Source: Escherichia coli
GTDB lineage: Bacteria; Pseudomonadota; Gammaproteobacteria; Enterobacterales; Enterobacteriaceae
DNA: 64,000 nt
Reading direction: 5' to 3' (one strand)
NCBI RefSeq assembly: GCF_009931435.1
Contig: NZ_CP043414.1
Position 1 is the stretch's first letter. Every line of letters begins with the position of its first letter. The position numbers were made by a program. Positions 36,001 to 39,000 of this stretch are shown here, in pieces.

Positions 36001-39000
36001 CGTAAAGCTATCACCAGCTGGCGAAGATTTCGCCAGTCACGTCTACCCTTGTTATACCTCACACCGCAAGGAGACGATCATGACCAACAATCCCCCTTCA
36101 GCACAGATTAAGCCCGGCGAGTATGGCTTCCCCCTCAAGTTAAAAGCCCGCTATGACAACTTTATTGGCGGCGAATGGGTCGCGCCCGCCGACGGCGAGT
36201 ATTACCAGAACCTGACGCCGGTGACCGGGCAGCTACTGTGCGAAGTGGCGTCTTCGGGTAAACGAGATATCGATCTGGCGCTGGATGCTGCGCATAAAGT
36301 GAAAGATAAATGGGCGCATACTTCGGTGCAGGATCGCGCGGCGATTCTGTTTAAGATTGCCGATCGAATGGAGCAGAACCTCGAACTTTTAGCGACGGCT
36401 GAAACCTGGGATAACGGCAAACCCATTCGCGAAACCAGTGCTGCTGATGTGCCGCTGGCGATTGACCATTTTCGCTATTTTGCCTCGTGTATTCGGGCGC
36501 AGGAAGGTGGGATCAGTGAAGTTGATAGCGAAACTGTGGCTTATCACTTCCACGAACCGTTAGGCGTGGTGGGGCAGATTATCCCGTGGAACTTCCCGCT
36601 GCTGATGGCGAGCTGGAAAATGGCACCCGCGCTGGCGGCGGGCAACTGCGTGGTGCTGAAACCCGCACGACTCACTCCGCTTTCCGTTCTGCTGCTAATG
36701 GAAATTGTCGGTGATTTACTGCCGCCGGGCGTGGTGAACGTGGTCAACGGTGCGGGCGGAGAAATTGGCGAATATCTGGCGACCTCGAAACGCATCGCCA
36801 AAGTGGCGTTTACCGGCTCAACGGAAGTGGGCCAACAAATTATGCAATACGCTACGCAAAACATTATTCCGGTGACGCTGGAGCTGGGCGGCAAATCGCC
36901 AAATATCTTCTTTGCTGATGTGATGGATGAAGAAGATGCCTTTTTCGATAAAGCGCTGGAAGGCTTTGCACTGTTTGCTTTTAACCAGGGCGAAGTTTGC
37001 ACCTGTCCAAGTCGTGCCTTAGTTCAGGAGTCTATCTACGAACGCTTTATGGAGCGCGCCATCCGCCGTGTCGAAAGCATTCGCAGCGGTAACCCGCTCG
37101 ATAGCGTGACGCAAATGGGGGCGCAGGTTTCTCACGGGCAATTGGAAACCATCCTTAACTACATTGATATTGGTAAAAAAGAGGGCGCAGACGTGCTCAC
37201 CGGCGGGCGGCGCAAGCTGCTGGAAGGCGAACTGAAAGACGGCTACTACCTCGAACCGACGATTCTGTTTGGTCAGAATAATATGCGCGTGTTCCAGGAA
37301 GAAATTTTTGGTCCGGTGCTGGCGGTAACCACCTTCAAAACGATGGAAGAAGCGCTGGAGCTGGCGAACGACACGCAATATGGCCTGGGCGCGGGTGTCT
37401 GGAGCCGCAACGGTAATCTGGCCTATAAGATGGGGCGCGGTATTCAGGCAGGGCGCGTGTGGACCAACTGTTATCACGCTTACCCGGCACATGCGGCGTT
37501 TGGTGGCTACAAACAATCAGGCATTGGCCGCGAAACCCACAAAATGATGCTTGAGCATTACCAGCAAACCAAGTGCCTGCTGGTGAGCTACTCGGATAAA
37601 CCGTTGGGGCTGTTCTGATGTAAGAAGCTGGTCGCATCGGGTATTCATTGCCTGATGCGACGCTTTCGCGTTTTACCAATTCAAATGTCTACGTCTTGAA
37701 TGACTGAATATTGATTGAACTTAATTACGAGTCTCCTCGCATCTTTTCAACAAGTTACTGCACACCGTTATTCTTCTTCCGAACGGCATTCCTGAGTCAA
37801 CTTTATCCCCCTGACGGCCCATATAAATCGCGCTATCGTGATTGTTATTGCTAAATGTGTGTGTGTCGTGTGTATAATCATGGAAGGGCAGGGATGTGAA
37901 AAGTGCAGACGTGATCGCCATCCTGAAGCAGCATGGCTGGGAACATATTCGAACCCGTGGTAGTCATCATCAGTTCCGCCACCCTGTTCATCCGGGTCTG
38001 GTGACGGTTCCGCACCCTAAAAAAGATATTAAGCCCGGTACGCTGGCGCAAATTGGGCGTCAGGCTGGTTTAACATTTTAAAATTTCAGGAGGCAATATG
38101 TTTTATCCCGCCTATATCCACAGTGATCCTGACGGCAGCGCCAGCGGTTTTTTCCCTGATGTTCCAGGCTGTTATTTTGCTGGTGATACGCTGGACAACG
38201 CTTTCCAGGATGCGCGAAGTGCACTGGTCGCGCACTTCGAAACCTTATGCGAGATGAATGAAGAGTTGCCGCTTCCAGGCTCTGTGGAAACACATCTGGT
38301 CCAGCGTGCGCAGGACTTTATTGGCGGGCAATGGTTGCTGGTGGATATCAATATGAATCAGTTCGAAGGTCGGGCTGAACGTATCAATATTACGATGCCG
38401 AAAAGATTACTGAACAAGATTGATACCTACGTGCGCAATAACCCAGACTACGCCAACAGAAGTGCGTTTCTGGCGGAAGCTGCCCGGCGTGTATTGCCGG
38501 GCGTTTAATCTCGCGTTTCGATGGTGAGCGGGCGGACCAGGCTGTACAGCCACAGACCAAAACAAGCGATGGTGCCAATCACCACGGTGAGGAACACACT
38601 GACTGACAGGCCTGCAAGCAATCCCGCAGGCAGGGCCAGCAGGCCGTGGATCACGGTGTCGTTCCATCTCACCTGATCGTAGCCAAACATGCCTAAAACG
38701 CCGCAAACCAGACCGTAAATCACCATTGGTGTTCCGAGGCCAATCAGCAATAAACGGTAGATAATTGAAGGTTTAATACGCTTTATCTGTACTGTGGATG
38801 TTTTACTGGGGTTATTCATTAGTTTGGTCAATAGTTCCATTATTTCAATATGATAAACCTCGACCTGTTGAAAAGCCAGGTAGCACACTTCAGAAAGTAT
38901 ATAAAAAACAATATGTCGTTATATAAATAAGGAAATTGCACTGCATCATGGCATTTCATAATATGCGTTAATTGTTCTTTTTTATATTCTCTGAGGGAAA

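What the first reader, a model, noticed from the sequence alone, without database searches (positions are those of the whole stretch)
37860..38840. hicA/hicB-like toxin-antitoxin pair plus a small membrane protein between aldB and yiaW
A 61-aa HicA-type protein and a 136-aa HicB-type protein with a C-terminal ribbon-helix-helix domain sit in the toxin-first order typical of hicAB. The toxin has a GTG start 18 nt after a perfect TATAAT, suggesting a short leader. A convergent ~111-aa membrane protein of unknown family overlaps the hicB stop. As far as I recall, the K-12 aldB-yiaW junction lacks these genes.
Basis: partly seen in the sequence, partly recalled or inferred. Interest (0 to 1): 0.55.

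Follow-up and report, generated by a model that had tools for sequence, protein, structure and literature searches.

The report
Ordinary chromosomal hicAB toxin-antitoxin pair
The region holds an intact but ordinary HicA/HicB toxin-antitoxin gene pair, already labelled as such in public E. coli annotations; it is old in enterobacteria, and most E. coli, including K-12, have deleted it and kept a small scar.

Summary
Window 37896-38081 (+) encodes a 61-aa HicA (Pfam PF07927, E 2e-23). Window 38098-38508 (+) encodes a 136-aa HicB (PF15919, E 9e-36) that aligns end to end with the ribbon-helix-helix HicBs of B. pseudomallei and Y. pestis. RefSeq already names both genes HicA/HicB family.

The pair is in 505 of 5,426 complete E. 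coli genomes, always single-copy, chromosomal and beside aldB. K-12 and most others lack hicA and hicB codons 1-109 but keep the last ~85 nt of hicB. The same junction occurs in E. whittamii and a cryptic Escherichia clade, so this was one old deletion.

Orthologous pairs (HicB 69-86% identical) occur, mostly close to aldB, in Yokenella, Enterobacter, Citrobacter, Lelliottia and Pseudocitrobacter. dN/dS is about 0.05-0.14. So this is a long-resident, selected module, not a new insertion.

Conserved across the 16 intact orthologs:
- a GTG start for hicA (16/16)
- a strong Shine-Dalgarno plus ATG for hicB
- a near-invariant 20-nt block containing the TATAAT, 16-20 nt before the GTG in the enterobacterial orthologs (13 in Serratia)

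The convergent membrane gene is real and more likely 104 aa than 111. It has a DUF3566-like fold, matches no Pfam family, and is not functionally tied to hicAB.

Verdict: a new, uncharacterised member of a well-known kind. Interest is low.

The parts
37631..37661 (.). REP-type inverted repeat just downstream of aldB. It is the left boundary of the segment that is deleted or replaced in K-12-type genomes.
   Evidence: Inverted repeat GTCGCATCGGG / CCTGATGCGAC. Alignments with K-12 stay collinear up to 37675. In scar alleles a second REP-like filler follows.
37778..37793 (+). Weakly conserved box TCCGA-N6-TTCCT, resembling a CRP-S site (TGCGA-N6-TCGCA). Possible activator site for an upstream promoter. 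This is inference only.
   Evidence: Columns CGA and TTCC are at least 80% conserved in the 17-sequence upstream alignment. The box scores 6/10 to the CRP-S consensus here, 7-8/10 in four orthologs and 10/10 in Serratia. Spacing to the next box is identical in 7 of 17 sequences.
37830..37842 (+). Conserved box GCGCTAnnGTGAT of unknown role. Candidates are the -10 region (TAnnGT) of an upstream promoter or a second HicB operator.
   Evidence: Near-invariant across genera while the flanking intergenic DNA cannot be aligned. It sits at a fixed -63 to -69 from the GTG.
37859..37878 (+). Near-invariant 20-nt block GTGTGTGTCGTGTGTATAAT (consensus GTGTGTATnnTGTGTATAAT). It holds the -10 hexamer TATAAT (37873-37878) and two direct GTGTAT repeats one helical turn apart. 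Probable promoter plus HicB operator.
   Evidence: Conservation line. The distance from the TATAAT end to the GTG is 16-20 nt in the enterobacterial orthologs scored and 13 nt in Serratia. No canonical -35 and no palindrome were found.
37882..37888 (+). Shine-Dalgarno-like GGAAGGG for hicA, 7 nt before the GTG. It lies only 4-10 nt after the -10 hexamer, so a transcript from that promoter would start in or next to it.
   Evidence: Read from the sequence. The AAGG core is conserved in orthologs.
37896..38081 (+). hicA: 61-aa HicA toxin, an mRNA interferase with a dsRBD-like fold. GTG start. Gly22 and His24 are present.
   Evidence: PF07927 E 2.1e-23. PDB 4c26/6g26 B. pseudomallei HicA E 1e-16. 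PGAP names it 'HicA family toxin', WP_000833473.1. The GTG start is conserved in 16/16 orthologs.
38088..38093 (+). Strong Shine-Dalgarno AGGAGG for hicB.
   Evidence: CAGGAG is conserved before the ATG in the orthologs.
38098..38508 (+). hicB: 136-aa HicB antitoxin. The N-terminal domain neutralises HicA; the C-terminal ribbon-helix-helix (about residues 95-133) binds DNA.
   Evidence: PF15919 E 9.1e-36 over residues 3-129. Full-length alignments to PDB 6g1n (E 2.8e-25) and 4p78 HicB3 (E 1.6e-21). PGAP names it 'HicB family antitoxin', WP_000499744.1.
38481..38503 (+). GC-rich hairpin (9 pairs) at the very end of hicB, followed by TTTAATCT. A possible weak terminator.
   Evidence: A 12-nt deletion destroys it in the K-12 and IAI39 scars, and E. 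whittamii has a different deletion there.
38505..38819 (-). Convergent gene for a 104-aa protein with two long helices, of an unnamed family with a DUF3566-like fold. It neighbours the TA pair but is not part of it.
   Evidence: PGAP CDS WP_001064341.1. Homologues are 103-105 aa with 30 invariant columns. 352 clusters match at E<=1e-3. AF2 model has pLDDT 76.8 with helices 17-44 and 59-95. Foldseek matches DUF3566 proteins. The gene occurs without hicAB.

Best explanation
This is a chromosomal type II toxin-antitoxin operon of the HicAB family, of the kind whose HicB carries a C-terminal ribbon-helix-helix (Class 4 of Gerdes 2024).

Shown here: both family domains are present. HicA Gly22 and His24 align with the residues essential in B. 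pseudomallei HicA. HicB aligns end to end with solved RHH HicBs. The genes are toxin-first and 16 nt apart. Both have been under purifying selection across genera.

Inferred from characterised relatives: free HicA cleaves mRNA independently of the ribosome and arrests growth. HicB covers the HicA active site with its N-terminal domain. HicB dimerises and tetramerises through its RHH and N-terminal domains and represses the operon by binding the conserved block that overlaps the -10 hexamer. Excess HicA loosens that repression.

Inferred from sequence: toxin output is kept below antitoxin output in three ways. hicA uses a conserved GTG start. The -10 hexamer sits only 17 nt upstream, so the transcript would begin in or at the hicA Shine-Dalgarno. 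hicB has a strong AGGAGG plus ATG.

The adjacent membrane gene is an independent neighbour.
For: Family membership:
- HicA PF07927, E 2e-23.
- HicA matches B. pseudomallei HicA (PDB 4c26/6g26) at E 1e-16 and about 50% identity. The H24A residue of 4c26 aligns to His24 here.
- HicB PF15919, E 9e-36.
- HicB aligns over residues 2-133 with BpsHicB 6g1n (E 3e-25) and over 1-132 with Y. pestis HicB3 4p78 (E 2e-21), RHH included.
- PHROG 353 'toxin' and PHROG 497 'HicB-like' match.
- RefSeq product names are HicA/HicB family.

Selection and age:
- 16 orthologous pairs in other genera, all toxin-first; most are close to aldB and/or followed by the same GH127 gene.
- dN is 0.10-0.27 in the enterobacterial orthologs (0.25-0.49 in Serratia) with dS saturated, giving dN/dS 0.05-0.14 where it can be computed.
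- 504 of 505 E. coli copies are at least 99% identical.

Regulation:
- GTG start in 16/16 orthologs.
- CAGGAG plus ATG for hicB.
- Near-invariant block GTGTGTATnnTGTGTATAAT at conserved spacing.

Literature framework: operators overlap the -10 in the Y. pestis and B. pseudomallei systems. The K-12 P2 transcript is truncated at the hicA ribosome-binding site and yields only HicB (PMC11594946, PMC7167474).
Against: - There is no experimental evidence for this particular pair. Searches for it in the held literature found only its use as a BLAST query.
- No palindrome was found in the promoter region, whereas the described HicB operators are inverted repeats.
- No canonical -35 accompanies the TATAAT.
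- No NCBIfam or PADLOC model matched.
- Over 90% of E. coli do well without the pair, and toxin-inactivated relatives exist: a frameshift in Escherichia sp. E1V33 and His24Pro in E. chuandaensis. The module is therefore dispensable and decays easily.
Confidence: 0.9

Rival explanations
1. The pair is a decaying or domesticated relic. The ORFs are intact but HicA is no longer toxic, or is never made, and HicB survives only as a transcription factor.
For: Most E. coli lineages have deleted the pair. hicA is frameshifted in Escherichia sp. E1V33 and partial or absent in two Enterobacter MAGs. His24 is Pro in E. chuandaensis. The predicted transcript from the TATAAT would translate hicA poorly.
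Against: Gly22 and His24 are intact here and in 14 of the 15 intact orthologs from other genera. hicA dN/dS is 0.05-0.14 over saturated synonymous divergence. 504 of 505 E. coli copies are at least 99% identical, and the rows listed are annotated as intact HicA/HicB genes.
Confidence: 0.1
2. The main biological role is anti-phage abortive infection. The mechanism is the same HicA RNase held by HicB, released when phage infection shuts off host expression.
For: A recent survey of HicA contexts proposes a defence role for the family (PMC10865869). Both proteins match PHROG families, so close relatives are carried by phages. The presence/absence polymorphism within the species resembles that of defence genes.
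Against: No PADLOC model matches. The pair sits among sugar-catabolism and aldehyde-dehydrogenase genes, not in a defence island, and has no mobile-element genes beside it. It has been inherited in the same neighbourhood across genera, unlike typical fast-moving defence cargo.
Confidence: 0.15
3. hicA, hicB and the convergent membrane gene form one three-part unit. For example, antisense or transcriptional interference across the overlapping 3' ends could link the membrane protein to toxin control.
For: The hicB and membrane-gene 3' ends overlap here (4 nt), in Pseudocitrobacter (4 nt) and in Enterobacter sp. kpr-6 (17 nt), although the surrounding gene order differs.
Against: The membrane gene occurs beside aldB with no hicAB in three other lineages and in 12 E. 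coli genomes. hicAB occurs with no membrane gene in about 490 E. coli and in most other genera, where a GH127 gene follows directly. Distant family members sit in unrelated contexts.
Confidence: 0.03

Closest known systems
Burkholderia pseudomallei HicAB (PDB 4c26, 6g26, 6g1n, 6g1c)
   Same: It is the best sequence match for both proteins: HicA E 1e-16 at about 50% identity, HicB E 3e-25 over the full length. The order is toxin-first and HicB has an RHH C-terminus. The essential Gly22 and His24 are conserved at the same positions.
   Different: It comes from a different host lineage. The published operator is a palindrome overlapping the -10 and a predicted CRP-S site (PMC11594946). Here the conserved block holds direct GTGTAT repeats and no palindrome was detected.
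Yersinia pestis HicA3-HicB3 (PDB 4p78, 4p7d)
   Same: It is an enterobacterial, chromosomal hicAB with an RHH-type HicB. HicB aligns over residues 1-132 at E 2e-21. The main operator overlaps the -10 box (PMC11594946).
   Different: HicA is only distantly similar (E 1e-4). The Y. pestis genes are separated by 174 bp (PMC11594946) against 16 nt here. The catalytic His is numbered 28.
E. coli K-12 HicAB (yncN/ydcQ; PDB 6hpb, 6hpc)
   Same: It is the same family and gene order. Its two-promoter logic, in which the HicB-repressed promoter gives an mRNA truncated at the hicA ribosome-binding site (PMC7167474, PMC11594946), is what the -10-to-GTG spacing here suggests.
   Different: The K-12 HicB has a helix-turn-helix C-terminus (Class 3) and matches only over the N-terminal 66 residues (E 1e-5). 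K-12 HicA was not detected at E<=1. The K-12 locus is elsewhere on the chromosome (basis: general knowledge of K-12, not tested here). The two are paralogous subfamilies.
DUF3566 transmembrane domain proteins (relevant to the neighbouring membrane gene only)
   Same: The predicted fold of two long helices with a short hairpin between them matches proteins labelled DUF3566: TM 0.7-0.86, Foldseek E 1e-6 to 1e-3.
   Different: No Pfam HMM, DUF3566 included, matches the protein or 39 family members at significant E-values. The function of DUF3566 is itself unknown.

Membership tests
HicA toxin family (Pfam PF07927) | Sequence match to the HicA_toxin profile over the whole small protein | tested here: met
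   E 2.1e-23, residues 4-59 to model positions 2-58 of 58. PDB HicA matches.
HicA toxin family (Pfam PF07927) | Conserved Gly and catalytic His in the G-S-H motif (Gly22/His24 in BpsHicA) | tested here: met
   The motif R-G-S-H24-H is present. His24 aligns to the Ala of the H24A mutant structure 4c26. It is conserved in 14 of the 15 intact orthologs from other genera. Essentiality is taken from PMC11594946.
HicA toxin family (Pfam PF07927) | Toxicity / RNase activity | not testable with these tools
   Needs expression and cleavage assays.
HicB antitoxin family, RHH type (Pfam PF15919; Class 4 hicAB of PMC10865869) | N-terminal HicB-like (partial RNase H fold) domain | tested here: met
   PF15919 E 9.1e-36. 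Residues 2-87 align with the N-domain construct 6g1c at E 3e-13.
HicB antitoxin family, RHH type (Pfam PF15919; Class 4 hicAB of PMC10865869) | C-terminal ribbon-helix-helix DNA-binding domain | tested here: met
   The alignment to BpsHicB 6g1n and YpHicB3 4p78 continues through residues 95-133 (ERINITMPKRLLNKID...RSAFLAEAARRVL). No separate structure model of HicB was made.
HicB antitoxin family, RHH type (Pfam PF15919; Class 4 hicAB of PMC10865869) | Toxin-first bicistronic operon with closely spaced genes | tested here: met
   hicA then hicB on the same strand with a 16-nt spacer. The spacer is 14-16 nt in most orthologs (range 2-27).
HicB antitoxin family, RHH type (Pfam PF15919; Class 4 hicAB of PMC10865869) | Autorepression through an operator (a palindrome in studied systems) in the promoter | tested here: inconclusive
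   A near-invariant 20-nt block overlaps the -10, but it contains direct repeats and no inverted repeat was detected. Binding was not tested.
HicB antitoxin family, RHH type (Pfam PF15919; Class 4 hicAB of PMC10865869) | Neutralisation of the cognate HicA by direct binding | not testable with these tools
   Needs co-expression or pull-down. Inferred from homology to solved complexes (6g26, 4p78).
Recently acquired mobile or accessory island cargo | Flanking mobility genes, variable insertion sites, or plasmid/phage copies | tested here: not met
   All 505 copies are single and chromosomal, none is on a plasmid, and every copy whose surroundings were read lies beside aldB. No integrase or transposase lies nearby. 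Most orthologs in other genera lie close to aldB.
DUF3566 (membrane neighbour) | Match to the Pfam profile | tested here: not met
   No DUF3566 hit for the protein or for 40 aligned family members.
DUF3566 (membrane neighbour) | Fold similarity | tested here: met
   Foldseek hits to many proteins labelled DUF3566, TM 0.7-0.86. The model pLDDT is 76.8.

The most novel reading that the evidence does not exclude
The regulatory region may encode a two-promoter design conserved across Enterobacteriaceae, like that of K-12 hicAB. An upstream promoter dependent on a CRP-S-like site (boxes at 37778-37793 and 37830-37842) would make a full-length mRNA for both genes. The HicB-controlled TATAAT promoter would start inside the hicA Shine-Dalgarno and yield antitoxin only. 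If so, this logic is shared between the HTH and RHH branches of the family.

In addition, the intact and deleted alleles may be an old presence/absence polymorphism. The same deletion junction is found in E. coli, E. whittamii and a cryptic clade, which suggests balancing selection or repeated recombination.
Probability: 0.25. Interest if true: 0.35.

Novelty: new member of a known kind. Interest (0 to 1): 0.15.

Why it matters
It matters little beyond bookkeeping. The pair adds one experimentally uncharacterised but confidently assignable RHH-type HicAB to the E. coli toxin-antitoxin repertoire, present in about 9% of complete genomes. It also explains an unannotated scar and a 47-aa 'hypothetical protein' in K-12.

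Three points are mildly useful:
- The cross-genus footprint of the promoter region gives a ready-made operator and promoter hypothesis for RHH-type HicB.
- The conserved GTG start and the -10-to-start spacing suggest that antitoxin-biased expression is built into the DNA, as in K-12 hicAB.
- The locus is a clean natural example of one old TA deletion allele coexisting with the intact allele across species boundaries.

Tried and rejected
- NCBIfam and PADLOC scans of all three proteins gave nothing, even though PGAP names the pair.
- I suspected the K-12 pseudogenes ysaC/ysaD were the hicAB remnants. A strain description places them between yiaS and yiaT. There RefSeq shows an unnamed internal fragment and an AraC fragment, not hicAB. 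The idea was rejected.
- I recalled that the 47-aa K-12 remnant might be a named small protein (YsaE). A literature search did not support this, so I make no such claim.
- A canonical -35 for the TATAAT was not found.
- A palindromic operator was not found.
- A full CRP or CRP-S site around 37834-37855 has only one good half-site. The CRP-S-like box at 37778-37793 is weak here (6/10) and its spacing is conserved in only 7 of 17 sequences. I kept it as a lead only.
- The primary papers on Y. pestis HicA3B3 and B. pseudomallei HicB-DNA binding are not held, so operator sequences could not be compared.
- A functional link between hicAB and the membrane gene was rejected because each occurs independently.
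- Phylogroup assignment of the hicAB-positive genomes was not attempted because whole genomes cannot be fetched.
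Full report
**What is in the sequence.** Downstream of aldB (ending at 37618) and a REP-type inverted repeat (37631-37661) lie two same-strand ORFs. The first runs 37896-38081 (61 aa, GTG start). The second runs 38098-38508 (136 aa, ATG start preceded by AGGAGG). They are 16 nt apart. A perfect TATAAT sits at 37873-37878, 17 nt before the GTG. On the opposite strand an ORF ends at 38505, so its stop overlaps the hicB stop within TTAA.

**Family assignment.**
- The 61-aa protein matches Pfam HicA_toxin over its whole length (E 2.1e-23).
- It matches the solved B. 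pseudomallei HicA (4c26, 6g26) at E 1e-16 and about half identical residues. The Ala of the H24A mutant structure aligns with His24 of the motif R-G-S-H-H here.
- The 136-aa protein matches Pfam HicB_lk_antitox (E 9.1e-36, residues 3-129).
- It aligns end to end with B. pseudomallei HicB (6g1n, E 2.8e-25, residues 2-133) and Y. pestis HicB3 (4p78, E 1.6e-21, residues 1-132). Both carry a C-terminal ribbon-helix-helix (domain descriptions from PMC11594946).
- The K-12 helix-turn-helix HicB (6hpb) matches only over the first 66 residues, and K-12 HicA was not detected. This is a different branch of the family from the K-12 yncN/ydcQ pair.
- In the scheme of PMC10865869 it is a Class 4 hicAB.
- PHROG families 353 ('toxin') and 497 ('HicB-like') also match. 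NCBIfam and PADLOC gave nothing.
- RefSeq already names the genes 'type II toxin-antitoxin system HicA family toxin' (WP_000833473.1) and 'HicB family antitoxin' (WP_000499744.1).

**Distribution in E. coli.** The core of the pair (37880-38420) is found in 505 of 5,426 complete genomes. It is always single-copy and chromosomal, and 504 copies are at least 99% identical. The wider interval shows at least five haplotypes:
- *Window type* (15 genomes): aldB-hicA-hicB-membrane gene-yiaW-yiaV-yiaU-yiaT-GH127-MFS-AraC-sgbE.
- *KTa008 type* (about 490 genomes, by subtraction): hicB is followed directly by GH127-MFS-AraC, and the membrane gene through yiaT is absent.
- *EC26 type* (12 genomes): hicAB is deleted but the membrane gene is intact.
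- *K-12 type* (the large majority): the same hicAB deletion, plus a 171-nt in-frame deletion between imperfect direct repeats in the membrane gene. This leaves a 47-aa annotated 'hypothetical protein'. Only pseudogene fragments (one of AraC, one unnamed) lie between yiaT and sgbE.
- *ESC53083 type*: aldB is followed directly by a frameshifted GH127, with no hicAB.

**Direction of change.** In K-12, EC26, IAI39, Escherichia sp. MOD1-EC7003 and E. whittamii, window positions 37676-38424 are replaced by about 93 nt of REP-like filler. That segment holds the promoter, hicA and hicB codons 1-109. The last ~85 nt of hicB remain in frame with the original. The junction (...TTTTAA|ACCTACGTGCGC...) is the same in all five. 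The absence in K-12 is therefore a deletion scar, not an empty site. It arose once and is now shared across species or clade boundaries.

**Age and selection.** A scan of one genome per species found HicB relatives 69-86% identical in Pseudocitrobacter, Pluralibacter, Trabulsiella, Yokenella, Citrobacter, Enterobacter, Lelliottia, Phytobacter and Serratia.
- All are preceded by hicA. In most of the loci where enough flank was available they lie within a few kb of aldB and/or are followed by the same GH127 gene.
- Against the window copy, dN is 0.15-0.27 (hicA) and 0.10-0.20 (hicB) in the enterobacterial orthologs, and higher in Serratia (0.49 and 0.25). dS is saturated. Where a ratio can be computed it is 0.05-0.14.
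- Decay also occurs. hicA is frameshifted in Escherichia sp. E1V33, partial or missing in two Enterobacter MAGs, and has His24Pro in E. chuandaensis. hicB is fragmented in L. nimipressuralis.
- The picture is a long-resident, selected, but dispensable module.

**Regulatory footprint.** Aligning 160 nt upstream of hicA from 17 loci shows mostly unalignable DNA punctuated by conserved blocks.
- A near-invariant GTGTGTATnnTGTGTATAAT (window 37859-37878) holds the -10 hexamer and two GTGTAT repeats 10 nt apart. It lies 16-20 nt before the GTG in the enterobacterial orthologs scored and 13 nt in Serratia.
- GCGCTAnnGTGAT (37830-37842) is the second block.
- A weaker T(G/C)CGA-N6-TTCC box (37778-37793) resembles a CRP-S site. 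It is perfect in Serratia, scores 6/10 here, and has fixed spacing in 7 of 17 sequences.
- All 16 orthologs start hicA with GTG. All but Serratia have a CAGGAG-like Shine-Dalgarno before the hicB ATG.
- No canonical -35 and no palindrome were found.

A start about 7 nt after the TATAAT would fall at 37884-37887, inside the hicA Shine-Dalgarno GGAAGGG (37882-37888). That is the arrangement described for the HicB-repressed P2 promoter of K-12 hicAB, whose transcript supports only HicB synthesis (PMC7167474, PMC11594946). In the Y. pestis and B. pseudomallei systems the main operator overlaps the -10 (PMC11594946). I therefore infer, but have not shown, two things. The 20-nt block is both promoter and HicB operator. 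Toxin translation is held down by the start codon and the leader.

**The membrane gene.** The best-supported start is 38819, giving 104 aa.
- The family is real. There are 30 invariant columns among eight enterobacterial sequences, and 352 clusters match at E<=1e-3 in a 1.84-billion-protein library.
- No Pfam family matches the protein or 39 relatives.
- The AF2 model (pLDDT 76.8) has two long helices joined by a short hairpin that carries the conserved W-N-D...H-G motif.
- Foldseek finds proteins labelled DUF3566.
- The gene sits beside aldB without hicAB in three other lineages. hicAB commonly lacks it. Distant members sit in unrelated contexts.
- It is a neighbour, not a third component. 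The intact form is rare in E. coli (27 of 5,426 genomes).

**Literature.** I found no paper that studies this pair. The HicA accession appears once, as a BLAST query.

**Verdict.** The finding is real and correctly interpreted, but it is an ordinary, already annotated member of a well-studied family. The most interesting residue is the conserved promoter architecture and the old shared deletion allele. Both are modest.

Noticed in passing
window 38505-46854 (also L002, L004, L041, L042, L048): The window strain keeps a complete gene set that other E. coli have lost piecemeal: membrane gene, yiaW-yiaV-yiaU-yiaT, then GH127 (42432-44450, minus strand), MFS transporter (44413-45813, minus strand) and AraC regulator (46039-46854). 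K-12 has only pseudogene fragments (one of AraC, one unnamed) between yiaT and sgbE. About 490 genomes lack the membrane gene through yiaT. Only 15 of 5,426 genomes share the window's arrangement.
   Followed up: partly
L002 3001-3110; L005, L039, L040, L042 (equivalent to window 37676-38424 deleted): The hicAB deletion junction, with its REP-like filler, is identical in E. coli K-12, EC26 and IAI39, in Escherichia sp. MOD1-EC7003 and in E. whittamii. One old event is shared across species or clades while the intact allele persists in about 9% of E. coli.
   Followed up: partly
window 38505-38819 (-): The small two-helix membrane protein belongs to a sizeable family (352 clusters at 50% identity). 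The family has conserved motifs (IYRLLLIGLG, FGYDxVxWNDxxxHG, GLWxYSxxRPL), no Pfam model and a DUF3566-like fold. Its function is unknown.
   Followed up: partly
L002 3069-3212 (K-12), equivalent to window 38505-38819 with an internal 171-nt deletion: The 47-aa 'hypothetical protein' annotated in K-12 (WP_001066080.1) is an in-frame deletion derivative of the 104-aa membrane protein. The deletion lies between imperfect direct repeats, ACCAGGCTGTA and ACCAGACCGTA.
   Followed up: yes
L041 2058-3353; L042 814-2109: Some E. coli (IAI39, ESC53083) carry a Fic-family gene inserted between yiaY and aldB. The window does not have it.
   Followed up: no
L009 5640-6713; L018, L023, L024, L028 just after hicB: In several other enterobacteria a ~357-aa protein sits next to hicB or the membrane gene. 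Where Pfam data were available (L009-L011) it carries HSDR_N, a restriction-endonuclease-like domain. This is another variable insert at the same spot.
   Followed up: no
L014 (JAIJJM010000854.1): A 1.2-kb contig filed under a 'Collinsella sp.' MAG carries the end of aldB and a hicAB pair 97-100% identical at protein level to the window's. It is almost certainly a mis-binned Escherichia contig.
   Followed up: no
L015 169-350; L024 3801-3986: Toxin-inactivating changes occur in relatives. hicA is frameshifted in Escherichia sp. E1V33 while hicB stays intact. E. chuandaensis HicA has Pro in place of the catalytic His24.
   Followed up: partly
window 7658-12211 (-) and 26178-30371 (-): Two very long ORFs (1,517 and 1,397 aa) lie elsewhere in the window. 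They were not examined.
   Followed up: no
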